Positions 1 through 43,297 of a stretch of DNA of 43,297 nucleotides are shown piece after piece. The DNA is from a virus. Under the pieces are notes generated by a model. It was not told the DNA's origin, searched no databases, and was given only the letters and a program-made list of their open reading frames with translations. Numbering within the stretch: the stretch's first letter is position 1; every line of letters begins with the position of its first letter. The translations under genes and the position numbers were made by a program. The DNA lies in IMG/VR virus record IMGVR_UViG_3300045988_110724, positions 1 through 43,297 of that record. The stretch is one strand, 5' to 3'.

Positions 1-77
1 GTCTCTGTAGCCAAAATTAGATTTCAACAGGAATACGGAAGCATTCCTGTCCATAGTTCCTTGAAGTGCTCCCTGTT
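1..77. repeat. Terminal direct repeat copy 1, identical to 43221-43297. It is an assembly overlap of a circular or circularly permuted genome.
   Basis: The same 77-nt string gtctctgtagccaaaattag...agtgctccctgtt was read at both contig ends. Confidence 0.95.
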
Positions 78-375
78 CGAGATTATCAGCCATCAGATTA
101 AGCATCTGTGAGAGAAAAATCGTTGTTTCATGATTAGGTCTCTCAGCAATCCATCTGTTAACAGTGTCTGGTGAAACTCCAAGGCAGACACATAGACCTC
201 TCAAGGTAGGAACTCTGTTGTTTTCATCGCAGTAAGTAAGATATTCATAACTTCTGTTCTTGATTGTATCAAAATCGTTGATTGTTGCCCTTTTCAATTT
301 GAGCATTTCTCTTGCACGTGCGACAGGCAGCTTGCTTTCGCCTATCTCATTGTAATCGAACTTCTTTTTTGCCAT
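1..375 (-). CDS. terS: Terminase small subunit (gp3-type DNA-packaging protein), N-terminal 125 codons. The ORF wraps the contig junction and continues at 43220.
   Basis: ATG at 375-373 with a GGAGG RBS at 383-387. Hand translation gives MAKKKFDYNEIGESKLPVARAREMLK...VPTLRGLCVCLGVSPDTVNRWI...ASVFLLKSNFGYRD. The HTH-like PTLxGLxxxLGVSxxTxxxW motif and the C-proximal FLLKxNFGxxD motif are typical of Firmicute phage TerS. Confidence 0.8.
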   Translation of the reverse strand, partial: MAKKKFDYNEIGESKLPVARAREMLKLKRATINDFDTIKNRSYEYLTYCDENNRVPTLRGLCVCLGVSPDTVNRWIAERPNHETTIFLSQMLNLMADNLEQGALQGTMDRNASVFLLKSNFGYRD

Positions 376-29400: not shown

Positions 29401-30792
29401 TAATGTCTGTAGTTCTTTCTTTAGGTCTTTTACTTTCTTGGTTGCTCCACCCACTGATGAGCCTGCATCCTTAGCACTGTCTGCCATATCATCCATAGCA
29501 CCAGAGCCTTTTTCTAAGTCGCTATAATCAATGGTTGGTAATTTAAATCCGAACAAGCCTGCTACAAAACTAGCAAACTTGTTTAAAAGGTCAACTGCTA
29601 CCTGTATATATGGAATTACTGCCGTAGCAAATACGCTCGCAATATTACCAATTGCACGTCTAAGTACATGGAACTGCTGTGTCAAAATACGTACAGCGTT
29701 ACTAGGCGTATTGATTGTACGTGCCATATCATTGAATACATCTACCTTGCTGGCATTATTCATGATAGTGATGTATCTCATGATTGCCTGTGTGTTCTGA
29801 TCCCAGGTACTTACGTTGCCTTGTAAACCATATTTAAGACCTGTCTGTTTAACCATTGCGACAGACACATTGTTACCATACTCCTTCAAGCCTTTAATCT
29901 GTCCGGACATGGCACTCTGTATTTTATCGAAAGCAGTGCTTACATCTACGTTCATTAAAGAACTATAGTCATATGATAACTGTGTTAGGTTCTGCGACAT
30001 TATCTGTGCTTTGTCACTTGCTACGCCAAAGCCTTCAATCATCATATTAAGTGTGCCCTGGTACTCCATCCACTTACCTGGATCGATGCCCATAGCATCA
30101 CTGACTTTTTGAGCAAATTCGCCAGCACTTTGTGCAGCACTGCCCATTGCAACATTGAACAGATTTAACTGTTCTATGTATTCAGCACTTTCATTATAAA
30201 AGAAACCGAACGTCGAATTCAGTGACGAGAAAGTAGAATGTATTCCTCTTGCTCCGCTTACTAAAGAACTGATTGCTGAAAACAGTCCACCTGTATGAAC
30301 CTTAGCACCTCTAGATTTAGAATTATAGGTATCTAGAGACTTGGATGCAGAGGCTACTGCACTCGGCATTTTACTAAACACATCAGACAGCTGATTGCCG
30401 TTCTGTGCAAGTGGTGCCATGGCACTTGAAATCTGATTCATCTGCCCGCTGAACTTGCCTAAGTCTGCTTGGTCTAGTTTGCTGATGGTTTTAGATATAT
30501 TTGATAAACTGTTCAAAGTTTTGCCAAGACCACTATCGCCGATTTTTTCTAAAGGCTTTAATGCTTCAACGAGATTTCTTATTCCTTTAGAAAAAGCGTC
30601 AACATTCTTGGTGTTTAAACCATTGACTGTCTTGTCAAGTCTTGAAAGAGAGTTCAAGGTAGTTGCAATATTGCCGTCAATCTTAATACCTTGATTTAAT
30701 CTTTGAAGTGCACCTGTCAACTTATCTATTGCGCTGACTGTTCCATCAACATCACTTTCGAATACTATCGATAATTTATCTATATCAGCCAT
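26428..30792 (-). CDS. Tail tape measure protein
   Basis: 1454 aa, highly alpha-helical and A/K/L-rich, with TM-like segments, a Gly-rich linker SGGSGGGGGSGGVGGGGG, and a position after the G/GT chaperones. Confidence 0.9.
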   Translation of the reverse strand: MADIDKLSIVFESDVDGTVSAIDKLTGALQRLNQGIKIDGNIATTLNSLSRLDKTVNGLNTKNVDAFSKGIRNLVEALKPLEKIGDSGLGKTLNSLSNISKTISKLDQADLGKFSGQMNQISSAMAPLAQNGNQLSDVFSKMPSAVASASKSLDTYNSKSRGAKVHTGGLFSAISSLVSGARGIHSTFSSLNSTFGFFYNESAEYIEQLNLFNVAMGSAAQSAGEFAQKVSDAMGIDPGKWMEYQGTLNMMIEGFGVASDKAQIMSQNLTQLSYDYSSLMNVDVSTAFDKIQSAMSGQIKGLKEYGNNVSVAMVKQTGLKYGLQGNVSTWDQNTQAIMRYITIMNNASKVDVFNDMARTINTPSNAVRILTQQFHVLRRAIGNIASVFATAVIPYIQVAVDLLNKFASFVAGLFGFKLPTIDYSDLEKGSGAMDDMADSAKDAGSSVGGATKKVKDLKKELQTLGFDELNILNSPKNDSDSGGSGGGGGSGGVGGGGGIGDIDLPQYDFLKGLKKDTDEIEKKLKELFKPVTDSWNKYGKAVMDSFKFALDELFKLTKSIGKSFGEVWQNGTGKKTVSEILLIVKNLCDFVGYLAKRFREAWDEAGLGTKIIQNLWDAANNLLHSVEDISEQLSNFAFYLDFKPALKSAYSLSKAFKELSDIVGKYLSDAFKNVLLPLAKWGIEKVIPTGVSALADALKGVSAALKNLRPFITFLEKLAVALGKLVGNTILVGISALGKALKAIGQSKTLLAALTTTVATLIASMKWGKVINDLNDVNSTVSKLKVVFELFKSEGISALELLVQDFVKSHKALDTLVTGFKGLNDANGILSGVSTAVTALGTKLGVLTVAEGGATTATGLLGGAFAFLAANPLVAVAGAITIAVAALAIFTSRVKDNSDAQERALSSAKRLSDGLKEQAQEWKKANAEARKNAEQGQKNALVAQDYASRLYGIVDANGKITGTVKQAQFFVDELNNRLGTNIEIHDGVISNWDEEKQKINENIEALKRKAVIEAYSEKFIEAEKERIKAQEQLTEATSKYNKSKEREEELLGKLKKAWESGQEPSASLTEEYHKQLEITEKYGKAVGSAKDKVTSITDGLNEYNAAIQSADGTVESSTAFIVEQYGVLAKDGTYTYSSLANGLNDLNAKCDENGKVWQTLSKTEQEASKQARIQLLGDLAQKAFSQGKTYEQMLSTAKAKGAELTQADKAELKKQYDNLKKQADDIKAVKKEQYNALMSLLDKYGIDKKSKDGKRYVNELKDAQKNGTEQGQKYIDNLAKKISNDSHKVTNEVDKTSKNSKKQFESHQAEFKVATKTAEKTLASFLNSIPTFKPIKLGLEVAKKVLKIGNFGFNIDLRAGGGFPDTGQMFIAREAGPELVGRIGRRTAVANNDQIVQGIASAVRSAMVGVNSPNNGGTTRITVQNVLNGRAIGESVIEYHNGKVKQTGHSPLLF

Positions 30793-37127: not shown

Positions 37128-38786
37128 TTAGCATGGTCTTTTGAATATTTTTTTCATCGTTCCATAGCCTCCGTACAGTCTGTCACACAACTGCGACAAG
37201 CTGTCGGGAGCATCGTCGTGCTCATTCTTACCGAGTATCTTGAATGAGAACAGGTTATTCATGAACATTGAATATTCTTTTGAACGTTTGCCTGGCTCAA
37301 GGAAATAGAACTCTCTAATATCGGGCGCATTCTGAAATATACGCACCTCTTTTGCCTTTGTTGTCGGCGCACTGTGTGATGTTATGACACACTTGTAATC
37401 AAGTCGTGCAAGTTCCTTCTCTACATCTTCAGCGTACCCTTCACCACCATTATTCTTTTCGACATCGCAGTCCTGTACACCCCACGAAGCGATTTTCTTC
37501 GCTACTTCCGGCTGTGTTATTCTCTTATCGCCGTTATTGAACACAACGTCTGGTATATATACTGTTCCGTCTGCATACTGATAGGCTATCGGAGCACTCA
37601 CGTAGTCACCGCCGCCCCAGGCAGTATCTACTACGGTCAGTCTTCTGATTGGTTCCTCACTTGGCAGTATTCCGTTATAGAACTTCATATCTCCACCGTT
37701 GAACAATGCACCCTCACGTTCTACAGGCTCTCCCTGGTACTGTGCGAACCATGAAGCCATGTCGTTATTTCTCTCGAATGACGCCCTTCTCTGCTGATAG
37801 TATTCAGTAGAGAATCCAACACCATAGTCATAGTCGAAATTGGATTCATCATTCTCATTGAGCGCTGGCAGATTCACAATCTTGTACTTTCTTGACCTGT
37901 AGTTCGGATCATTCAATATAAGGTCCTGTCTTAGGCCGGCCGGGTCCACGAGCGACCATCTAGTACCTATCCATAACACCTTGCTCCCCTGTTTTGCACG
38001 TGTGATGAGGTTGTTATCTACTAATTTCCATGTCTTGTACATACGCTCCGGATTGAGTGCTTCTTCGATACCGCCAATCAAGTCATCACCGATAAGCACG
38101 CCGTTACAGTCACATGAACCGTTCAGTGTTCCATAGATAGAACGGCATGTAAGTGTTGGATATCTCTTCTTTCGCTCTAAATCCAATGTGTTTAATCTAG
38201 AGTTCTGATTCACTATGACGGATGCCGGAAAAATCTCACTGTATGTATAGGTCATATTGTCATTGATGATTTCATTTATACCTTCATAGAATGAATGCGT
38301 AATCGTGTCAGAGAAACTGCTGTACAGATTCGTCTTCTCTGAATTGATTCCCATGAGCCACGTAAGAAAGAACATGATTAATGTTGTCTTGCCTACTCGT
38401 GGCGGCATGGAAATAAACAGTTCCTGTAGATTTCCGTCATGGAGTGCCTGTAAGTCCTCTACAACGGTTCTCAATACCTTCATTCGTGGACGGTAGAACT
38501 GCTCATTGACAGGTCTGTTTATCTCGAGATAAAGCATGTAGTCCTCGAACGAATAATGCGCCGTAAACAGGAATGTCTTCTTATACATCTGATACATGTT
38601 GTATCGCTCCTCGATATCCTTGCTTCTGTTGCTGTTCGCTTCAGCAAGTCTGTGTCTTAAGTCCTTATTCAGATGCAGAAGCGTATCTTTATCGTTCGTA
38701 GCGTAGCAGTTCAATACAATGTCATACTTGGCAGTAAGACTGTCAGTACTCTTGTACAGTTTCACTTTCTTCTTATCTATTGCCAT
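37128..38786 (-). CDS. terL: Terminase large subunit
   Basis: 552 aa. Walker A MPPRVGKTT, Walker B-like VLIGDDL, and a C-terminal nuclease region with VDTAWGGGD. Confidence 0.9.
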   Translation of the reverse strand: MAIDKKKVKLYKSTDSLTAKYDIVLNCYATNDKDTLLHLNKDLRHRLAEANSNRSKDIEERYNMYQMYKKTFLFTAHYSFEDYMLYLEINRPVNEQFYRPRMKVLRTVVEDLQALHDGNLQELFISMPPRVGKTTLIMFFLTWLMGINSEKTNLYSSFSDTITHSFYEGINEIINDNMTYTYSEIFPASVIVNQNSRLNTLDLERKKRYPTLTCRSIYGTLNGSCDCNGVLIGDDLIGGIEEALNPERMYKTWKLVDNNLITRAKQGSKVLWIGTRWSLVDPAGLRQDLILNDPNYRSRKYKIVNLPALNENDESNFDYDYGVGFSTEYYQQRRASFERNNDMASWFAQYQGEPVEREGALFNGGDMKFYNGILPSEEPIRRLTVVDTAWGGGDYVSAPIAYQYADGTVYIPDVVFNNGDKRITQPEVAKKIASWGVQDCDVEKNNGGEGYAEDVEKELARLDYKCVITSHSAPTTKAKEVRIFQNAPDIREFYFLEPGKRSKEYSMFMNNLFSFKILGKNEHDDAPDSLSQLCDRLYGGYGTMKKIFKRPC

Positions 38787-38813: not shown

Positions 38814-38850
38814 AAAAAAAGAGCCTACACCATATGTGGTGCATGGCTCT
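38814..38850 (-). terminator. Intrinsic terminator after the recombinase gene, immediately upstream of the terL RBS
   Basis: The minus strand reads GAGCC..CACCAcataTGGTG..GGCTC followed by T7 (plus-strand A-run 38814-38820). Confidence 0.6.
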
Positions 38851-39412
38851 AGGCTCTATGCTTATAATACGTTGCTCTGCTCACATTGCACTGCTTGCAG
38901 GCTTCTGTTATTGATACACCCTGTCTGACCAGGTTATCTACCTCTTCGATTGAGACAGTCGGTCTTCCGATGCTCTTTCCTCTCTTGCGTGCGGCTTTGA
39001 GACCTTCGACGGTTCTCTCCACCATCATGTCATGCTCCTGCTGGGCAAGTGATGAAAGCACCTCGAGGATTATGTTGTTTATCATCTCGATGATCCATTC
39101 CTGTCCGTCCAGTTCAATCATGGTCGTAGGCATATTAAGTATTCTTATTATAACACCCTTTTCCTGGAAAAACCTAATCTCGTCCTTTATGAGCTGTTTA
39201 TTTCTTCCAAGTCTGTCGAGTGCGTGGATGTATAGTTCATCCCCTTTTTTTATCGTTTCCTTCAACTTGCAGTAGTTCGGTCTGTCGATTCTTGTGCCCG
39301 TGTACTTGTCACTGTAAATATAGTCTACATTGTATGAGCGCAGGCTGTCTATCTGCCTGTCGAGAGACTGCTTTCCTGTACTCACTCGTGCGTAGCCGTA
39401 TTTCATCGCCAT
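38849..39412 (-). CDS. Small serine recombinase (resolvase/invertase family) with a C-terminal HTH
   Basis: An N-terminal YGYARVSTGKQSLDRQ catalytic Ser motif, LDRLGRN, and a C-terminal HTH GVSITEACKQCNVSRATYYKH. 187 aa. Confidence 0.9.
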   Translation of the reverse strand: MAMKYGYARVSTGKQSLDRQIDSLRSYNVDYIYSDKYTGTRIDRPNYCKLKETIKKGDELYIHALDRLGRNKQLIKDEIRFFQEKGVIIRILNMPTTMIELDGQEWIIEMINNIILEVLSSLAQQEHDMMVERTVEGLKAARKRGKSIGRPTVSIEEVDNLVRQGVSITEACKQCNVSRATYYKHRA

Positions 39413-39672
39413 TTCCCTCTGTTATCTTCTCTATCGGGCACTTCATCTAGTACGACTGTTCTTTCTGCTCTGTCATTACCGCCTCGTGGTCTGATGATGA
39501 TGTCGTAGTCAAGTTCGTTGCATATGTTGATTAGGATGCTGACCTTTGTATCACTCACTCTAGATATATTGCCAATACTGGCACTACTCTTATATCCTAG
39601 TCTGTCTGCAAGTCTAGCAAATGAGCTGTTATTGTCATCAATCATCTTTCTTAAGCATTCTTTTAAGTTCAT
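39403..39672 (-). CDS. XRE-family HTH regulator, translationally coupled to the recombinase
   Basis: ATG 39672 lies 8 nt after AGGAGG. The HTH is SSFARLADRLGYKSSASIGNISR. Its stop overlaps the recombinase start. Confidence 0.65.
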   Translation of the reverse strand: MNLKECLRKMIDDNNSSFARLADRLGYKSSASIGNISRVSDTKVSILINICNELDYDIIIRPRGGNDRAERTVVLDEVPDREDNRGKWR

Positions 39673-39692
39673 AATATCTACCTCCTGTGCAT

Positions 39693-39734
39693 AGTATATC
39701 ATTACTCTTGGTATGTGTCAACACTATTTAGTGT
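39693..39734 (-). promoter_or_regulatory. Promoter of the HTH-recombinase operon (TTGACA-17-TATACT) with an adjacent 14-bp palindrome
   Basis: The -10 box maps to plus-strand 39693-39698 and the -35 box to 39716-39721. The palindrome ACACTATTTAGTGT lies at 39721-39734. Confidence 0.6.
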
Positions 39735-39867
39735 ATGTCCTTAAAAATAGGCCGTCGGTGGTAGCGGGGTTGAGCAGTATTGGTAAAACCATCAAAAAAA
39801 TGGGGAGGGCGGGGCTATATATAAAAACGTTGTCTAAAAAACGAACGATTAAAAGACATTATAAAAT

Positions 39868-39948
39868 AATCATTATTTAATGATTTTTATTATTGACATT
39901 AGTCATTATCTAATGTATTATACAGGTGTAGTCATTAATAAGTGACTA
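39868..39948 (+). promoter_or_regulatory. Promoter of the amidoligase operon (TTGACA-17-TATTAT) embedded in operator-like palindromes
   Basis: The -35 box is at 39893-39898 and the -10 box at 39916-39921. AATCATTA-TT-TAATGATT lies at 39868-39885. TAGTCATTA occurs at 39900-39908 and again within the palindrome TAGTCATTAATAAGTGACTA at 39929-39948. Confidence 0.6.
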
Positions 39949-40177
39949 AAGATAGTTCATTGACAATTGAATAACGTGAAAATCTCAAAAGGAAAAGAGA
40001 AACGTATATATACATATTGCTATGTATAGTACTGAAAAAGAAAAGAGATTAATCCACAACGTACCAATCTATATATAGATGTACATATTAGAATTAATCT
40101 CTTTATATTAGTGCTATATGTTTAGCCGACAAATAGCAACATGATTATATCATATGTTTTTCTTAAGGTAAAACATT

Positions 40178-41572
40178 ATGGATAATAATTTAGTAAAGTA
40201 TTATGACCACAACGAATTTTCATTTATTTCTATGGAGAAATTAGAAGAATTAAAAGATGAATATTATATTGAATATTCTACCTTAGAAGATTGCTATATC
40301 AATAAAGATACCAGCGATTATGGTTATTGTGATAATGATCTTTTAACTAATGATACTATAGAAAATGGAGATTATATCTATTGTGAAGATACAGAAGATT
40401 ATCAACCAACCGATTACACTGTACATCTAGAAGATACAGACGAATATGTAACGGAGAATTATGAATACCAATATTGTAGTGAATGTGGATCATATTTTAG
40501 TCGTGACTATGAAATGCATTGTCGCGGTGACAATTATTATTGTGATGATTGTTGGGAGGACATGGAACCTGTTATTTATGATTATCATTGTTATCGCGAT
40601 GGTTATTACCCACGTTCTCTAGCACGTGAAAGTCCATTGTTTATGGGGTTTGAATTAGAAGTTGACAACGTACGCGGTGATTGTGAAAGTTTAGCTGCAA
40701 GCGTATTAGATGGTGACAGTACAGACGTATTACATTGTGAATATGATTGTACAGTGGCCTTTGAATTTATTAGTCAACCATGTACACTAGCATATCACAA
40801 GAACCAACATTATAACGATTGGTTCTTTAATGAACTAGATGGCAATTGTGAAAGTCACGACGCTGGTACTTGTGGTTTACACGTACACGTTAACAAGTCG
40901 TTTTTTGATGATCGCAGTTATAACAGATTGAAAACAATTCTTTTCTTCTTTAAAGAGGAATTATTCCAATTTTCACGCCGCCAGCGTTGGGATTATGGTT
41001 ATTCTGACTTTGGAGAAATAATCCGTAAAAACAATGTAACAATGCATAAAGCAAAAAATACTAAACACTATGGCCATTCTACATGGTTCAATGAAAATAA
41101 TAGTTCTACTTACGAATTTAGATTTTTCCGTGGAACTCTTAAGTATGAAACATTTATGGCAAGTCTTGAACTAGTCCACAATATTTGTATGGCTGCAATG
41201 AGTAATAAAGATGTTATCACATGGGATTCACTTCTAGATGGTGATTATTGTAGAGAATACAGCGAATCACGTGAAATCTATTGCGATAGTGAATTGAATT
41301 TAGGTGAGTTAGAAAAGAAAGAAAACGAATTAATGCAAGCAATCAAAAAAGGTTTAGAGGAAAATGTTTTTATCAATTTAAATCATGTTTGTGTTGGTGA
41401 GATTGTAGGAGATACAATCGTTTTCTATTGTCTCTATAACAATAACGGAGAACTACACAAACGCCGTCAAAACTATATTGATCTATCGGAGTTTGAAACC
41501 TTTGAAACACACGGCTATTACTACTTATGTAATAGAAAAGAACTTTCTAACTTGTTAGGGGGTGAATTCTAA
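40178..41572 (+). CDS. Glutamine-synthetase-like amidoligase (Amidoligase_2 family) with a Tyr/Asp/Glu/Cys-rich N-terminal extension containing a zinc ribbon
   Basis: Catalytic-domain motifs FMGFELEV, YDCTVAFEFISQP, GTCGLHVHVNK and TYEFRFFRGTL. The N-terminal 150 aa are low-complexity and include CSEC-x10-HC-x6-CDDC. Confidence 0.8.
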   Translation: MDNNLVKYYDHNEFSFISMEKLEELKDEYYIEYSTLEDCYINKDTSDYGYCDNDLLTNDTIENGDYIYCEDTEDYQPTDYTVHLEDTDEYVTENYEYQYCSECGSYFSRDYEMHCRGDNYYCDDCWEDMEPVIYDYHCYRDGYYPRSLARESPLFMGFELEVDNVRGDCESLAASVLDGDSTDVLHCEYDCTVAFEFISQPCTLAYHKNQHYNDWFFNELDGNCESHDAGTCGLHVHVNKSFFDDRSYNRLKTILFFFKEELFQFSRRQRWDYGYSDFGEIIRKNNVTMHKAKNTKHYGHSTWFNENNSSTYEFRFFRGTLKYETFMASLELVHNICMAAMSNKDVITWDSLLDGDYCREYSESREIYCDSELNLGELEKKENELMQAIKKGLEENVFINLNHVCVGEIVGDTIVFYCLYNNNGELHKRRQNYIDLSEFETFETHGYYYLCNRKELSNLLGGEF

Positions 41573-42438
41573 TGTGCATTATTGCAATCAAGCCAGCTCA
41601 TCATAAAATGATAGATGAGACAACGCTAGAAACAATGTTTAACACCAACCCCGACGGCGCGGGTTATATGTACGCTTATAACAATAGAGTACATATCAAA
41701 AAAGGTTTCATGACATTAAAGGAATTGTTAAATAGCCTTGATAATCTGAAAAAGAAAATCAATATTGAAGAAATACCCTTGATCTTACATTTTCGTATCT
41801 CTACTAGTGGGAAAACAGATGGCGCCACTTGCCATCCTTTTCCTGTCACTAGTGATTTAAGCGCACTAAGAAAAACCCATGTTATAACTAACTTAGGTAT
41901 GGCGCATAATGGTATTATTGGTGATTTTGAAGAAAAGAATAGTATCTATAGCGATACACAATTATTTGTGAATAAGTGTGTATCATATCTCTATGATATA
42001 AATCCTAAATTCTTACACGATGATAGAACGAAAAAGCTGCTAGAACCTATTATAAATGGTTCACGCCTGGCGTTTCTAGACAGTCACGGCAATATATACC
42101 GTTATGGTGACTGGATCGAAAACGATGGTATCTATTATAGTAATGAGGGCTATATCCCATGGCAAACACGCTATTATCATATTAATGATACTTATTATAG
42201 TAAGTACTATTATGGTGATGATTATTATTACTATGGTGATGAGGACCAGGAACTAAAAATTTTAGAGAAATTAGAAGCCTATGAAGAAATCACAAACAGT
42301 GAAGATATCTGTTATATTAGAACTATGTATGATATAGTAGAAGAAACGGAAAACACGGAAATTTATGACGTGGTCGGTATGTTTGTAAAGGTTGATCCTA
42401 TCGCAAGCCGTGCTATTCGTATCGAGGGGGTTGATTAA
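41572..42438 (+). CDS. Class-II (Ntn-type) glutamine amidotransferase-like protein with a poly-Tyr/Asp segment and a C-terminal extension
   Basis: Cys2 nucleophile (MCIIAIK), HFRISTSGKTDGATCHPF, MAHNGIIGDF and YSDTQLF. Its start overlaps the upstream stop (TAATG). The tail is YYHINDTYYSKYYYGDDYYYYGDED. Confidence 0.8.
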   Translation: MCIIAIKPAHHKMIDETTLETMFNTNPDGAGYMYAYNNRVHIKKGFMTLKELLNSLDNLKKKINIEEIPLILHFRISTSGKTDGATCHPFPVTSDLSALRKTHVITNLGMAHNGIIGDFEEKNSIYSDTQLFVNKCVSYLYDINPKFLHDDRTKKLLEPIINGSRLAFLDSHGNIYRYGDWIENDGIYYSNEGYIPWQTRYYHINDTYYSKYYYGDDYYYYGDEDQELKILEKLEAYEEITNSEDICYIRTMYDIVEETENTEIYDVVGMFVKVDPIASRAIRIEGVD

Positions 42439-42588
42439 TTGTTTAGATTATTGATTTATTTATGTTTTTTTCCGTTGTGGTTGATATGGTGGTTTATTAA
42501 AATTGTAGCGTGGTTCATGCTGCAGCTTGAAATATTCTTACTTAGTTTCAATGGTAGTAGTGCAATAAAAAGAAGAAGAAGATGGTAA
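42439..42588 (+). CDS. 49-aa hydrophobic peptide with an RRRRW tail (TTG start)
   Basis: Hand translation (M)FRLLIYLCFFPLWLIWWFIKIVAWFMLQLEIFLLSFNGSSAIKRRRRW. GAGGGGG lies 8 nt upstream, and the operon terminator overlaps its 3' end. Confidence 0.45.
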   Translation: MFRLLIYLCFFPLWLIWWFIKIVAWFMLQLEIFLLSFNGSSAIKRRRRW

Positions 42589-42602
42589 CATCTTCTTTTT
42601 TG
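42571..42602 (+). terminator. Intrinsic terminator of the amidoligase operon
   Basis: AAGAAGATG-gtaa-CATCTTCTT followed by TTTTTG. Confidence 0.75.
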
Positions 42603-43085
42603 TCGTTCATAAATAATTATAGTTCTATGAATTAATTATAGTTCTATAAACGTTTAAGGATCACAAGTGATACGCTATTATAAAGCGTTCTAAGAGACTT
42701 TTATATAATGGTGATATAAATATACCATAACCACATAAGCAACGCTTAAAATTGAAATATAGGCTTTCTATACAATGCAGCTTATACATACCAATTGTAG
42801 AGATATTCCACAGGGCTTTAAATAGCCCTTTTAAGCGTGTTTTATACTATCATGATATAATTATCATCTTTCATATAAATGTGCCTTAGAATTGAAATAT
42901 AGCCCATTTAAGGCTATAGGTGCATGTAATCTATACTAATACAAGAACGAAAGATTTTACATAGAACCACGAAAAAATCCATACTCAAGAAAATAGGAAA
43001 AATACGGCAAAATTTCAGATGTCATAATGCGCCGTCAAAATTTTCGCACGCATGGTGACAGAATTTTCACGTGCATATGTAAAAA

Positions 43086-43114
43086 GGTGAGCAAAAAAAC
43101 GCTCACCTTTTTTT
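43086..43114. terminator. Bidirectional intrinsic terminator directly after terS
   Basis: A5, then GGTGAGC-aaaaaaac-GCTCACC, then T7. Confidence 0.8.
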
Positions 43115-43220
43115 ATTTCTCTTCAAAATCTGCATCTATAACGACCGCAGAAATTTCCTTTTCAATCTGTTCAATCGATTTGCTTTCAGAAACCATATGA
43201 TGGACCTTCACATCCTGGTT
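43113..43220 (-). CDS. terS: Terminase small subunit, C-terminal 35 codons plus stop. Together with 1-375 the protein totals 160 aa.
   Basis: In-frame continuation NQDVKVHHMVSESKSIEQIEKEISAVVIDADFEEK, with TAA at 43115-43113, followed immediately by a hairpin terminator. Confidence 0.8.
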   Translation of the reverse strand, partial: NQDVKVHHMVSESKSIEQIEKEISAVVIDADFEEK

Positions 43221-43297
43221 GTCTCTGTAGCCAAAATTAGATTTCAACAGGAATACGGAAGCATTCCTGTCCATAGTTCCTTGAAGTGCTCCCTGTT
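43221..43297. repeat. Terminal direct repeat copy 2 (duplicate of 1-77)
   Basis: Exact match to nt 1-77. Confidence 0.95.

What the first reader, a model, noticed from the sequence alone, without database searches (positions are those of the whole stretch)
39868..42602. Self-contained amidoligase + class-II glutamine amidotransferase + micro-membrane-peptide operon of unknown function
Seen in sequence:
- The 464-aa ORF carries the hallmark motifs of the GS-like Amidoligase_2 family: GFELEV, GLHVHV and EFRFFRGT.
- The next ORF begins MCIIAIK (a Cys2 Ntn nucleophile) and carries the class-II GATase motifs R.sT.G..HPF, HNGII and SDTQL.
- The two ORFs overlap by 1 nt (TAATG).
- They are followed, with no gap, by a 49-aa TM peptide ORF and a clean terminator.
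- They are preceded by a consensus-like sigma-70 promoter wrapped in palindromes.
- The operon runs opposite to the whole late operon and looks AT-richer than its flanks.

Established knowledge: to my recollection, this amidoligase/GAT-II pairing was noted only by comparative genomics (Iyer, Aravind and co-workers, 2009), as a predicted phage system forming amide or peptide bonds on a metabolite or protein. I know of no biochemical or biological characterisation.

Inference: this is a lysogen-expressible moron. It could make a small amidated or gamma-glutamyl-type molecule or a protein tag, with a role in counter-defence, host takeover or superinfection exclusion.
Basis: partly seen in the sequence, partly recalled or inferred. 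Interest (0 to 1): 0.85.

Follow-up and report, generated by a model that had tools for sequence, protein, structure and literature searches.

The report
Phage amidoligase plus Ntn-amidotransferase accessory cassette
A temperate gut-bacterial phage carries a repressor-controlled three-gene cassette (an ATP-dependent amide-bond ligase, a glutamine-amidotransferase-like hydrolase and a tiny membrane protein) that belongs to a very common, often-annotated phage gene pair whose chemistry and purpose are still untested.

Summary
All three ORFs are genes under purifying selection, and the promoter, palindromes, 1-nt overlap, terminator and low GC are as described.

ORF1 (464 aa) is a GS/GCS-fold carboxylate-amine ligase of the Amidoligase_2 lineage. 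ORF2 (288 aa) is a class-II (N-terminal Cys) glutamine-amidotransferase-fold protein with the glutamine-binding residues intact. Direct Pfam hits are sub-threshold. Homologue profiles and AlphaFold/Foldseek settle both assignments.

The pairing is not rare. A GAT-II gene sits directly downstream of the amidoligase in 140 of 149 related phage or genome loci with room to check. The pair is already annotated in LUZ24-like, Marvin-like, OM43 and many other phages. I found no functional study.

New here:
- The cassette also contains an invertase-type serine recombinase and an 89-aa regulator whose sequence co-varies with the operators on the amidoligase promoter.
- The cassette splits terS from terL in a complete 43.2-kb circular genome.
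- A GAT-II–GGACT fusion occurs in a related phage.

Most likely chemistry (confidence about 0.4): the ligase makes a γ-glutamyl-type amide and the Ntn partner cleaves or unloads it. The rival is Gln-dependent amidation. Verdict: a new member of a known, uncharacterised kind, of moderate interest.

The parts
38849..39412 (-). Small serine recombinase (resolvase/DNA-invertase type, 187 aa). It is the second gene of the divergent operon, and its start overlaps the regulator's 3' end.
   Evidence: Pfam Resolvase PF00239 at 2.2e-27 plus HTH_7. PHROG 125 'DNA invertase' at 1.2e-49. 95-97% nt identity among relatives.
39403..39672 (-). 89-aa putative DNA-binding regulator. The listed ORF runs to 39702, but the likely start is M11 at 39672, behind a GGAGG site.
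   Evidence: No profile hit. Its variable segment (residues ~27-45) falls into three classes that match the three operator classes at the promoters exactly: window/L008/L009/L013, L003/L011/L016, and L006.
39693..39734 (-). Sigma-70-like promoter for the regulator-recombinase operon (TTGACA-17-TATACT with TG), with the adjacent palindrome ACACTATTTAGTGT at 39721-39734.
   Evidence: Promoter scan, 11 of 12 matches. Sequence reading. The palindrome changes with regulator class in relatives.
39831..39858 (.). 28-bp palindrome TGTCTAAAAAAC-GAAC-GATTAAAAGACA (12+4+12). It is a candidate binding or crossover site for the serine recombinase.
   Evidence: Nearly invariant in 9 aligned sequences, whatever the operator class. 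No second copy in the genome above chance. Function is inferred only.
39867..39949 (.). Three operator-like repeats (TAATCATTATTTAATGA, TAGTCATTATCTAATG, TCATTAATAAGTGACTA), lying upstream of -35, between -35 and -10, and just downstream of -10.
   Evidence: Repeat finder families D2/D3 and I9/I10. This is the most variable stretch of the cassette (0.62-0.72 identity), and it co-varies with the regulator.
39893..39921 (+). Sigma-70-type promoter of the amidoligase operon (TTGACA-17-TATTAT).
   Evidence: It is a consensus match only; no transcript data.
39995..40165 (+). Long imperfect hairpin in the ~250-nt 5' leader, ending about 13 nt before the start codon.
   Evidence: RNA fold of the + strand: -60.1 kcal/mol, z = -5.7, 0 of 200 shuffles as stable. 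The - strand gives -54 kcal/mol, z = -4.0. 96-98% conserved. No Rfam family.
40178..41572 (+). Amidoligase (464 aa). It has an N-terminal beta-hairpin / degenerate Zn-ribbon (LIM-like) array (~1-150), a GS/GCS-fold catalytic core (~150-350) and a C-terminal beta-rich domain (~396-464).
   Evidence: 20 of 27 homologues hit PF12224. Invariant residues are G157, E159, E161, D190, E196, H227, C232-G-L-H235, H237, R267, R268, E313, R315, G319 and T320. AF2 pLDDT is 92. Foldseek finds YbdK, Dop and GmaS and 43 viral matches at E <= 1e-3, most of the named ones 'amidoligase'.
41572..42438 (+). Class-II (Ntn) glutamine-amidotransferase-fold protein (288 aa). It has an Ntn domain (1-198), a Tyr/Asp-rich disordered linker (199-221) and a small C-terminal domain (224-288).
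   Evidence: 10 of 25 homologues hit GATase_4 and 3 hit GATase_6. Invariant residues are C2, R75, T78, H88-P89, N113-G114 and D128-T129. AF2 pLDDT is 88. Foldseek finds the GFAT1/GlmS glutaminase domain and PurF (E = 5e-7, prob 1.0).
42439..42588 (+). 49-aa hydrophobic protein with a basic C-terminus (KRRRRW). It is translationally coupled to ORF2, with GAGGGGG lying 8 nt upstream.
   Evidence: The ORF is kept open in 14 of 14 sequences. ATG sits in a TAATG overlap in 9 and TTG is the start in 5. pN/pS is 0.29 with third-position bias. It is called as a gene in L163. Maximum KD hydropathy is 2.04.
42572..42601 (+). Intrinsic-terminator-like hairpin overlapping the stop of the small ORF. It also reads as a terminator on the - strand.
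43113..43297 (-). 3' part of terS (160 aa), given as context. The gene continues at window 78-375 because the window is a circular genome with a 77-nt terminal overlap.
   Evidence: Python reconstruction. PHROG 606 'terminase small subunit' at 4.1e-10. PF16677 GP3_package on the orthologue in L163.

Best explanation
**What it is**
- It is a three-gene operon (amidoligase, class-II Ntn amidotransferase-like protein, 47-49-aa membrane peptide).
- It is one copy of the widespread phage and mobile-element 'Amidoligase_2 followed by GAT-II' module.
- Here it lies inside a 4.3-kb low-GC cassette that also encodes its own regulator and an invertase-type serine recombinase.
- The cassette sits between terS and terL of a complete 43.2-kb temperate phage of Erysipelotrichaceae (Holdemanella/Catenibacterium-type hosts).

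**How it most likely works**
1. ORF1, a GS/GCS-fold carboxylate-amine ligase, uses ATP to activate a carboxylate as an acyl-phosphate. The carboxylate is most probably the gamma-carboxyl of glutamate or of a Glu residue.
2. ORF1 joins that carboxylate to an amine, giving a glutamine-like gamma-glutamyl amide.
3. ORF2 binds that gamma-glutamyl amide as a glutaminase binds glutamine. Arg75/Thr78 would hold the alpha-carboxylate, Asp128 the alpha-amine, and Asn113-Gly114 would form the oxyanion hole.
4. ORF2 cleaves the amide through a Cys2 thioester, releasing or handing on the amine.

The pair is therefore a load/unload ('glutamate carrier' or writer/eraser) system, not an ammonia-channelling synthetase. 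The fast-evolving Zn-ribbon/LIM-like N-domain of ORF1 suggests a macromolecular partner. The membrane peptide suggests action at the membrane or envelope. The 89-aa regulator represses the operon's promoter, so expression is probably transient (on entry or induction) rather than constitutive.

**Shown:** gene reality, folds, conserved catalytic residues, synteny, and operator-regulator covariation.

**Inferred:** substrates, direction of flux, complex formation, timing of expression and biological role.
For: **Folds and residues**
- ORF1's fold matches YbdK, Dop/PafA and GmaS, all enzymes that make or break gamma-glutamyl or carboxylate-amine bonds.
- ORF2's fold matches the glutaminase domains of GFAT/GlmS and PurF.
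- ORF2 has an invariant set C2, R75, T78, N113-G114, D128. The profile aligns HFRIsTsG and AHNGII with GlmS HTRWATHG and VHNGII.
- In the 150 best of 12,629 family clusters, the match starts at or close to residue 1 of the protein, as an N-terminal nucleophile requires.

**Gene context**
- GAT-II lies directly downstream of the amidoligase in 68 of 73 IMG/VR loci and 72 of 76 GTDB loci.
- Start and stop codons overlap, which indicates coupled translation.
- In phage C75C1 the partner of the amidoligase is a fusion of GAT-II (residues 1-160) with a GGACT/AIG2 gamma-glutamylamine cyclotransferase (residues 167-285; 2.7e-21). This ties the Ntn domain to cleavage of gamma-glutamyl amides.
- Amidoligase plus gamma-glutamyl cyclotransferase pairs are also reported in Clostridium prophages (PMC11318856).

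**Characterised precedents for 'GS/GCS-like ligase loads, class-II GATase-type enzyme unloads'**
- FzmN (a GS homologue) puts acetylhydrazine on Glu, and FzmA (an AsnB homologue with an N-terminal Cys) hydrolyses glutamylhydrazine. TsnB9 behaves likewise (PMC6133997).
- EgtA makes gamma-Glu-Cys and the amidotransferase-type EgtC removes the glutamate (PMC5790434).
- From my own knowledge, I know of no GS-fold enzyme fed ammonia by a GATase.

**Partner and regulation**
- The N-domain of ORF1 has dN/dS 0.25, against 0.08 for the catalytic core.
- Regulator class matches operator class in all 8 comparable sequences.
Against: - No substrate, product or complex has been observed; everything about the chemistry rests on analogy.
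- Conservation of the glutamine-binding residues fits free glutamine as substrate equally well.
- Foldseek ranks true amidotransferase glutaminase domains (GFAT/GlmS/PurF) first. EgtC is not in the 50 hits shown.
- Tight translational coupling and 94% synteny are also what a two-subunit amidotransferase would show.
- A ligase and a hydrolase acting on the same bond look futile unless a transfer or processing step lies between them, and no such third enzyme is conserved.
- The small membrane ORF recurs in only some lineages.
- The 89-aa protein has no profile hit, so its DNA binding is inferred from covariation alone.
Confidence: 0.4

Rival explanations
1. Two-subunit glutamine-dependent amidotransferase. 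ORF2 hydrolyses free glutamine and channels NH3 to ORF1. ORF1 ATP-activates a carboxylate on a cell-envelope component (for example D-iGlu or mDAP of peptidoglycan, or a teichoic-acid or capsule carboxylate) or on a metabolite, and converts it to a carboxamide. The result would be lysogenic conversion or superinfection exclusion. This is functionally like MurT/GatD.
For: - The full set of glutamine-binding and catalytic residues is present.
- The best structural matches are genuine amidotransferase glutaminase domains.
- Translation is coupled and adjacency is 94%.
- The membrane peptide in the operon fits an envelope target.
- The literature repeats the Iyer-2009 idea of cell-wall modification that prevents superinfection (PMC10580990; PMC11318856).
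- MurT/GatD is a precedent for a ligase plus a separate GATase amidating peptidoglycan (PMC3267633, listed).
Against: - I know of no GS/GCS-fold synthetase that receives ammonia from a GATase (own knowledge).
- Characterised class-II GATase domains that channel ammonia are fused to their synthase, whereas stand-alone ones such as EgtC are hydrolases (plus own knowledge).
- The GAT-II–GGACT fusion is hard to rationalise if the Ntn domain only supplies ammonia.
- No AMID-GAT fusion was seen in 159 loci.
Confidence: 0.3
2. Protein or peptide tagging system (Pup-like, or the Iyer-type 'peptide ligase plus thiol peptidase'). ORF1 ligates an amino acid or a small peptide to a host or phage protein carboxylate or lysine. 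ORF2 acts as an Ntn peptidase that matures the tag or removes it. The small ORF could even be the substrate or the anchor.
For: - Foldseek hits include Dop and PafA.
- ORF1 has a LIM/Zn-ribbon-like N-terminal array typical of protein-protein recognition. LIM PF00412 is found in 2 homologues and the PDB profile hits are to LIM proteins.
- That domain evolves three times faster than the catalytic core.
- Several loci carry two amidoligase paralogues around one GAT-II, which suggests successive ligations.
- Aravind-group papers propose peptide ligation and protein modification for linked ligases in phages (PMC4431377).
Against: - No conserved tag or substrate gene accompanies the pair.
- ORF2 keeps the Arg/Asp pair that reads the free alpha-carboxylate and alpha-amine of a glutamyl group. 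This points to a small gamma-glutamyl head group rather than an internal peptide bond.
- The small ORF is not conserved outside a few lineages.
Confidence: 0.12
3. Part of a phage DNA or nucleotide hypermodification pathway, in which the amidoligase and amidotransferase decorate a modified base.
For: Amidoligase and glutamine-amidotransferase Pfam hits co-occur with thymidine-hypermodification genes in some viral contigs (PMC8989533).
Against: - The cassette holds no 5-HMUDK, aGPT-Pplase, dUMP hydroxymethylase or TET/JBP gene.
- The ten other window proteins scanned are ordinary replication, lysis and integration functions.
- The module also sits in many loci whose only shared neighbours are recombinases, DUF960 and DUF3846.
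- The operon is divergent from, and separately regulated from, the replication genes.
Confidence: 0.05
4. A prophage-encoded defence or abortive-infection module in which the membrane peptide is the effector and the enzymes sense or arm it.
For: - It is an accessory, low-GC, separately regulated cassette in a temperate phage.
- Small hydrophobic ORFs follow GAT-II in several lineages.
Against: - No PADLOC model matches any of the five cassette proteins.
- The same enzyme pair is carried by strictly lytic phages such as the LUZ24-like group (PMC3890496), where host defence makes little sense.
- The peptide is absent from most loci.
Confidence: 0.07

Closest known systems
Phage Amidoligase_2 (PF12224) + class-II GATase gene pair, as annotated in LUZ24-like/tf/UFV-P2 Pseudomonas phages, Mycobacterium phage Marvin gp105/gp106, OM43 phages MEP401/402 and phiEco32 (predicted by Iyer et al. 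2009)
   Same: - The two folds, the gene order (ligase then GAT-II), the tight coupling and the phage or mobile-element location are the same.
- Marvin gp105 is 26% identical to ORF1 and gp106 is 28% identical to ORF2, with MC- at the N-terminus.
- The function is unknown in all of them.
   Different: - The LUZ24-like phages add a COOH-NH2 ligase (PF14395) and an ATP-grasp enzyme, and their GATase is a 486-aa GATase_6 protein. Neither addition is present here.
- This version has a degenerate Zn-ribbon N-domain, extra C-terminal domains on both proteins, a trailing membrane peptide, and a dedicated regulator plus serine recombinase.
- It sits between terS and terL of a temperate Firmicutes phage.
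Glutamate-carrier pairs: FzmN/KinL (GS-like) with FzmA (AsnB-type class-II GATase), and TsnB9
   Same: A GS-superfamily ligase loads an amine onto the Glu gamma-carboxyl. An N-terminal-Cys class-II GATase domain then hydrolyses the gamma-glutamyl amide to release the amine (PMC6133997). This is the logic proposed here.
   Different: - Those are Streptomyces natural-product enzymes.
- FzmN is a canonical GS homologue, and FzmA carries a fused synthetase domain.
- Here the ligase is from the distant Amidoligase_2 branch and the Ntn protein stands alone.
- No sequence-level relationship beyond the superfamily was shown.
EgtA / EgtC of ergothioneine biosynthesis
   Same: - A GCS-type ligase makes a gamma-glutamyl compound, and a stand-alone amidotransferase-type hydrolase later removes the glutamate (PMC5790434).
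- ORF2 homologues hit GATase_4, which I recall (not tested here) is EgtC's Pfam family.
   Different: - In that pathway, intervening enzymes (EgtB, EgtD) give the cycle a purpose. No such partners are conserved here.
- EgtC was not among the 50 Foldseek hits shown.
PafA / Dop (pupylation ligase and depupylase)
   Same: ORF1 shares the GS-like carboxylate-amine ligase fold; Dop is at ranks 2, 7 and 9 and PafA at rank 24. The writer/eraser idea is shared too.
   Different: - In the Pup system both writer and eraser are GS-like, and no Ntn protein is involved.
- TM-scores are low (0.19-0.25).
- No Pup-like tag gene is present.
MurT / GatD peptidoglycan amidotransferase
   Same: A separately encoded ligase and glutaminase are co-transcribed and together amidate an envelope carboxylate (PMC3267633). 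This is the model for the main rival explanation.
   Different: MurT has a Mur-ligase fold and GatD is, from my own knowledge, a class-I (triad) GATase. Both folds differ from those found here.

Membership tests
Amidoligase_2 (Pfam PF12224; GS/GCS carboxylate-amine ligase superfamily) | Profile match above the curated threshold | tested here: inconclusive
   - The direct hit is E = 5.9e-4 at 20.2 bits, below the cut-off of 22.
- 20 of 27 aligned homologues match PF12224 (best 3.2e-10).
- PHROG 2443 'amidoligase enzyme' scores 7.9e-5 and PHROG 16683 scores 1.9e-32.
- Membership therefore holds by transitive homology.
Amidoligase_2 (Pfam PF12224; GS/GCS carboxylate-amine ligase superfamily) | GS/GCS-like catalytic fold | tested here: met
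   - The AF2 model has pLDDT 92.
- The top PDB matches are YbdK 1r8g (prob 1.0, E = 4.8e-4), Dop and GmaS.
- There are 43 BFVD matches at E <= 1e-3, most of the named ones 'amidoligase'.
Amidoligase_2 (Pfam PF12224; GS/GCS carboxylate-amine ligase superfamily) | Conserved acidic/His/Arg motif set (GxExE, CGLHxH, RR, ExR..GT) | tested here: met
   These residues are invariant in a 60-sequence alignment reaching down to 24% identity. I could not check their 3-D clustering at an active site, because no coordinates were accessible.
Amidoligase_2 (Pfam PF12224; GS/GCS carboxylate-amine ligase superfamily) | ATP-dependent carboxylate-amine ligation | not testable with these tools
   This needs an enzyme assay.
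Class-II (Ntn) glutamine amidotransferase | Cys directly after the initiator Met as the N-terminal nucleophile | tested here: met
   M1-C2 is invariant in 58 sequences. In the 150 best family representatives the match starts at or close to residue 1.
Class-II (Ntn) glutamine amidotransferase | Profile match to GATase_2/4/6/7 | tested here: inconclusive
   - The direct GATase_4 hit has E = 0.12.
- 10 of 25 homologues hit GATase_4 (best 2.4e-9) and 3 hit GATase_6.
- The sister subfamily partner in L027 hits GATase_6 at 2.8e-13 and GATase_7 at 4.8e-8.
Class-II (Ntn) glutamine amidotransferase | Ntn alpha-beta-beta-alpha fold like the GlmS/PurF glutaminase domains | tested here: met
   The AF2 model has pLDDT 88 overall and over 90 across most of residues 1-190. 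Foldseek finds GFAT1, GlmS (including the 1xff glutaminase domain) and PurF at prob 1.0, with E down to 5e-7.
Class-II (Ntn) glutamine amidotransferase | Glutamine-binding and oxyanion residues (Arg, Asn-Gly, Asp) | tested here: met
   R75, N113-G114 and D128 are invariant. The R..T.G and HNG motifs align with those of GlmS 1xff. The GlmS residue numbers are from my own knowledge.
Class-II (Ntn) glutamine amidotransferase | Ammonia transfer to a coupled synthase (true amidotransferase function) | not testable with these tools
   No complex model or assay was available.
Phage 'amidoligase + GAT-II' conserved neighbourhood (Iyer et al. 2009; Pfam PF12224 description) | GAT-II gene adjacent to the amidoligase on the same strand | tested here: met
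   The window has a 1-nt overlap. Adjacency holds in 68 of 73 IMG/VR loci and 72 of 76 GTDB loci.
LUZ24/phiEco32-type extended cluster (adds COOH-NH2 ligase PF14395 and ATP-grasp) | Extra ligase genes in the cluster | tested here: not met
   The cassette holds only three genes between the promoter and the terminator. In L163, an 84%-identical relative, the precomputed annotations show no such domains on flanking genes.
Known anti-phage defence systems (PADLOC-DB v2) | Any component model match | tested here: not met
   None of the five cassette proteins gives a hit at E <= 0.1.

The most novel reading that the evidence does not exclude
The cassette is a mobile, repressor-gated 'writer/eraser' machine. 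On phage entry or induction, the amidoligase, held at the membrane through the 49-aa peptide, would install a gamma-glutamyl-type amide on a host envelope or protein target chosen by its fast-evolving Zn-ribbon domain. The Ntn partner would remove or transfer that mark. This would be a previously unrecognised class of phage-encoded covalent host modification, used for superinfection exclusion or counter-defence and shared by thousands of phages and integrative elements.
Probability: 0.15. Interest if true: 0.8.

Novelty: new member of a known kind. Interest (0 to 1): 0.4.

Why it matters
- **Scale of the gap.** The amidoligase/GAT-II pair is one of the more common unexplained enzyme modules in phage genomes. 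The ORF2 family alone comprises 12,629 clusters at 50% identity. It has been annotated for about 15 years without an assay.
- **Payoff of solving it.** Working out its chemistry would annotate thousands of genes. It could also reveal a new way for phages to modify hosts.
- **What this locus adds.** It supplies context rather than novelty: a cognate repressor-operator pair, a membrane peptide, a GAT-II–GGACT fusion in a relative, and a domain under faster evolution. These narrow the hypotheses to gamma-glutamyl-amide chemistry at the membrane.
- **Where to test.** Culturable, tractable phages such as LUZ24 and Marvin already carry the pair and are better experimental entry points than this uncultured gut phage.

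Tried and rejected
**Searches that found nothing useful**
- Near-identity DNA searches of the operon and of 21 kb of the late region against 50,697 phage records gave no match.
- Rfam at permissive E-values over 39400-43297 gave nothing credible.
- PADLOC gave no hit and NCBIfam no specific family for the enzymes.
- A sequence-profile search of the PDB with ORF1 found only LIM proteins. With ORF2 it found only a marginal GlmS hit. Fold comparison was needed for both.
- Pfam scans of ten unusually long GAT-II homologues, made to look for informative fusions, showed nothing.
- The plasmid search gave only 7 weak hits, all on non-mobilisable replicons. A 'leading-region anti-defence' idea therefore got no support.
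- There are no tRNAs in the window and no notable tandem repeats at 42500-43200.

**Hypotheses rejected**
- *Invertible-promoter (inverton) idea*, prompted by the adjacent DNA invertase. No long inverted repeats flank the promoter. The 28-bp palindrome has no partner site above chance.
- *Coding potential of the conserved G-rich stretch 39748-39830.* Frame-breaking 1-nt indels among relatives rule it out. It has no RNA structure signal on either strand.
- *'Exceptional' conservation of the 5' leader.* It is 96-98% identical, but terL and the recombinase are 95-97% identical too.

**Papers not held**
- Iyer et al. 2009 (PMC3268129) and Mageeney et al. 2012 (PMC3347389) are not in the library. 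Their content is cited second-hand or from memory.
- The Klebsiella CfmP paper that mentions amidoligases concerns an ATP-grasp enzyme and is irrelevant.

Full report
**1.

The window contains the three consecutive + strand ORFs described. They are 40178-41572 (464 aa), 41572-42438 (288 aa, starting MCIIAIK) and 42439-42588 (49 aa, TTG start).

- All the quoted motifs are present.
- ORF1's TAA and ORF2's ATG share base 41572. A purine-rich AGGGGGTGA lies upstream.
- A TTGACA-17-TATTAT promoter sits at 39893-39921. It is surrounded and overlapped by three copies of a TCATTA..TAATGA-type palindrome.
- A hairpin followed by a U-run ends the operon. Its energy is -15.7 kcal/mol (z = -4.5), with only 3 G-C pairs, and it also reads as a terminator on the other strand.
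- GC falls to about 0.32 across 40-43 kb, from 0.39-0.45 in the flanks.

Two small corrections apply. The invariant glutamates are E159 and E161. The direct Pfam matches are sub-threshold: Amidoligase_2 scores 20.2 bits against a cut-off of 22, and GATase_4 has E = 0.12.

**2. All three are real genes**

I compared the window with eleven close relatives from IMG/VR.

- dN/dS is 0.25 for the ORF1 N-terminal domain, 0.08 for its catalytic core and 0.09 for its C-terminal domain. For ORF2 it is 0.07 (Ntn domain) and 0.15 (linker plus C-terminal domain).
- The small ORF stays open in 14 of 14 sequences. It has pN/pS 0.29 and a clear third-codon-position excess of differences (611 against 300 and 234).
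- The small ORF begins with an ATG inside a TAATG overlap in nine relatives and with TTG in five sequences. A gene caller found it independently on a 471-kb bacterial contig.
- It is strongly hydrophobic, with a basic C-terminus.

**3. What the proteins are**

*ORF1*
- It has 399 database relatives at E <= 1e-3. The closest come from Holdemanella and Catenibacterium.
- 20 of 27 aligned homologues match PF12224 Amidoligase_2, and two also carry LIM domains.
- A 60-sequence alignment keeps G157, E159, E161, D190, E196, H227, C232-G-L-H235, H237, R267, R268, E313, R315, G319 and T320 invariant.
- The AlphaFold model has pLDDT 92.
- Its best PDB matches are YbdK (a GCS2 carboxylate-amine ligase), the Pup enzymes Dop and PafA, and gamma-glutamylmethylamide synthetase. 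It also matches 43 viral models at E <= 1e-3, and most of the named ones are called 'amidoligase'.
- Residues 1-150 form a run of beta-hairpins. This is a degenerate version of the CxxC zinc-ribbon/LIM arrays seen in relatives.

*ORF2*
- It has 1,525 relatives at E <= 1e-3. A full HMMER scan of 1.84 billion representatives finds 12,629 clusters, and in the 150 best the match starts at or close to residue 1.
- Ten of 25 homologues hit GATase_4 and three hit GATase_6.
- C2, R75, T78, H88-P89, N113-G114 and D128-T129 are invariant.
- The R..T.G and HNG motifs align with those of the GlmS glutaminase domain.
- The model has pLDDT 88, with a disordered Tyr/Asp-rich linker at 199-221.
- It matches the GFAT1/GlmS glutaminase domains and PurF, with E down to 5e-7 and prob 1.0.

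**4. The pairing is common and already known**

- I took the 80 best IMG/VR loci and the 80 best GTDB loci that encode an ORF1 relative. A class-II GATase gene lies directly downstream on the same strand in 68 of 73 and 72 of 76 loci that have room to check.
- There are two GAT-II subfamilies. One is the ORF2 type. The other is more PurF/AsnB-like (GATase_6/7).
- The pair is annotated in Pseudomonas phage UFV-P2 and other LUZ24-like phages, there together with a COOH-NH2 ligase and an ATP-grasp enzyme (PMC3890496).
- It is annotated in Mycobacterium phage Marvin as gp105/gp106, and in about 20 cluster relatives.
- It is annotated in the OM43 phages MEP401/402 and more than 30 metagenomic genomes (PMC10580990).
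- The 2023 OM43 paper states that the functions 'remain to be explored'. It repeats the ideas of Iyer et al. (cell-wall modification, exclusion) and Mageeney et al. (secondary metabolites).
- My searches found no biochemical or genetic study. Iyer 2009 itself is not in the library.

**5.

*The genome*
- The window is a complete circular genome: a 77-nt terminal overlap gives 43,220 bp.
- It is a temperate phage, with a tyrosine integrase, an Amidase_3/PG_binding_1 endolysin and a primase-helicase.
- Close relatives sit on bacterial contigs of up to 471 kb.

*The cassette*
- The operon is part of a ~4.3-kb cassette lying between terS and terL.
- terS (160 aa) runs on the - strand from 375 across the window ends to 43113. 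terL is at 37128-38786.
- The rest of the cassette is a divergent two-gene operon. It has its own sigma-70-like promoter at 39721-39693. It encodes an 89-aa protein and a 187-aa serine recombinase of the resolvase/DNA-invertase type.

*The regulator*
- In an alignment of nine intergenic regions, the stretch around the amidoligase promoter is the most variable part of the cassette.
- That stretch falls into discrete operator classes.
- In the eight sequences where the 89-aa protein could be extracted, its variable segment falls into exactly matching classes: window/L008/L009/L013, L003/L011/L016, and L006.
- The 89-aa protein has no profile hit. The covariation nevertheless makes it the best candidate for a specific repressor, because one operator lies between the -35 and -10 elements.
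- So the operon is gated. It is not simply a constitutive 'moron'.

*Other conserved elements*
- A 28-bp 12+4+12 palindrome lies at 39831-39858 and is present once per genome. It could be the recombinase's site, for example for multimer resolution.
- A long hairpin lies in the 250-nt leader at 39995-40165 (-60.1 kcal/mol, z = -5.7).

*Recombinases elsewhere*
- Small serine recombinases also sit next to the enzyme pair in unrelated loci. This hints at a mobile unit.

**6. Mechanism**

The data fix the two folds and their catalytic residues, but not the substrates. I weighed two chemistries.

*(A) Ammonia channelling.* ORF2 is a glutaminase that feeds NH3 to ORF1, which amidates an ATP-activated carboxylate. 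This is functionally like MurT/GatD.

*(B) Load and unload.* ORF1 makes a gamma-glutamyl-type amide, and ORF2 recognises it as a glutamine analogue and cleaves or unloads it.

I favour (B), at about 0.4 against about 0.3 for (A), for four reasons:
- ORF1's structural relatives all make or break gamma-glutamyl or carboxylate-amine bonds.
- In phage C75C1 the amidoligase's partner is a fusion of the GAT-II domain with a GGACT/AIG2 gamma-glutamylamine cyclotransferase. Amidoligase plus gamma-glutamyl cyclotransferase pairs are also reported in Clostridium prophages. Both alternative partners are enzymes that break gamma-glutamyl amides.
- Characterised systems use exactly this logic. FzmN loads acetylhydrazine on Glu and the AsnB-type FzmA hydrolyses glutamylhydrazine, and TsnB9 behaves likewise (PMC6133997). 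EgtA and EgtC do the same in ergothioneine synthesis (PMC5790434).
- From my own knowledge, I know of no GS-fold enzyme served by a GATase. The stand-alone class-II proteins that have been studied are hydrolases.

Points against (B):
- The residue set fits free glutamine equally well.
- The best fold matches are true amidotransferases.
- A ligase and hydrolase acting on one bond need an intervening step, and no conserved third gene supplies one.

The faster-evolving Zn-ribbon N-domain suggests a macromolecular target. The membrane peptide, which recurs as unrelated tiny hydrophobic ORFs after GAT-II in L017, L050, L059 and L074, suggests a membrane location. Both points are inference.

I rate the DNA-hypermodification and defence-system readings as minor.

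**7. Verdict**

This is a genuine, well-formed instance of a known but functionally uncharacterised phage module, so it is a new member of a known kind. Its cassette architecture gives useful leads:
- the cognate repressor and operators;
- the recombinase and its candidate site;
- the leader hairpin;
- the membrane peptide;
- the position between terS and terL.

The central mystery is not specific to this locus. It is better attacked in culturable phages that carry the same pair. Interest is about 0.4.

Noticed in passing
window 39403-39702 (-) and 39721-39734, 39867-39949: The 89-aa protein encoded divergently from the operon has no family hit. Even so, its variable segment falls into three classes that match the three classes of palindromic operators at both divergent promoters in all 8 comparable sequences. 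This looks like a modular, immunity-like repressor/operator pair dedicated to the cassette.
   Followed up: yes
window 38849-43112, with terS at 43113-43297 plus 78-375 and terL at 37128-38786: The recombinase, regulator, amidoligase, GAT-II and peptide cassette (~4.3 kb, the operon half at GC 0.32) separates terS from terL. terS has its own hairpin terminator at 43081-43112. The packaging and structural genes may therefore depend on the cassette's - strand promoter or on read-through.
   Followed up: partly
window 1-77 = 43221-43297: The first 77 nt are repeated at the end of the window. The window is therefore a complete circular assembly of 43,220 bp, cut inside terS.
   Followed up: yes
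window 39831-39858: The 28-bp palindrome TGTCTAAAAAAC-GAAC-GATTAAAAGACA (12+4+12, the layout of a resolvase site I) is nearly invariant in relatives and present once per genome. It is a candidate site for the adjacent serine recombinase, possibly for multimer resolution. No inversion partner was found.
   Followed up: partly
window 39748-39830: A G-rich, conserved non-coding block (GGCCGTCGGTGGTAGCGGGGTTGAGC...GGGGAGGGCGGGG) lies between the two divergent promoters. Frame-breaking indels exclude coding, and neither strand gives an RNA-structure signal. Its function is unknown.
   Followed up: partly
window 39995-40165 (+): The ~250-nt 5' leader of the amidoligase mRNA folds into a ~170-nt imperfect hairpin (-60.1 kcal/mol, z = -5.7) that ends just before the ribosome-binding site. 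It contains G-U pairs that slightly favour the sense strand. No Rfam family matches.
   Followed up: partly
window 40178-40630 (ORF1 residues 1-150): The N-terminal domain is a degenerate zinc-ribbon/LIM-like hairpin array in which only one CxxC...CxxC unit (C100/C103/C122/C125) is left. It evolves about three times faster at non-synonymous sites than the catalytic core (dN/dS 0.25 against 0.08).
   Followed up: partly
L162:4001-4897 (Phage C75C1, OQ984151.1): The amidoligase partner in this phage is a single protein that fuses a class-II GATase N-domain to a GGACT/AIG2 gamma-glutamylamine cyclotransferase domain. The record annotates it only as 'gamma-glutamyl cyclotransferase'.
   Followed up: yes
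L026, L028, L031, L038, L040, L044, L060, L061, L070 (IMG/VR): In unrelated elements a small serine recombinase (183-247 aa) lies downstream of amidoligase-GAT-II, in most of them immediately after GAT-II. DUF960, DUF3846 and large serine integrases are often nearby. The enzyme pair may travel as a recombinase-associated cargo unit on integrative elements as well as on phages.
   Followed up: partly
L023, L039, L046, L067, L076 (IMG/VR): Some loci carry two amidoligase paralogues with one or two GAT-II genes, in tandem or interleaved. This suggests successive ligation steps in those elements.
   Followed up: no
window 165-190 and 29842-29867: Two further TGTCT-N16-AGACA palindromes occur, making 3 in the window against 0.4 expected by chance. 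One lies inside terS, where pac sites of gp3-type terminases often lie. No link to the cassette was established.
   Followed up: no
L002:3971-5332 (Mycobacterium phage Marvin gp105 and cluster relatives): GenBank annotates the amidoligase homologue gp105 as 'glutamine amidotransferase domain protein'. It is actually the Amidoligase_2-type ligase (PF12224 weak hit, 26% identity to ORF1). Only gp106 is the GATase.
   Followed up: partly
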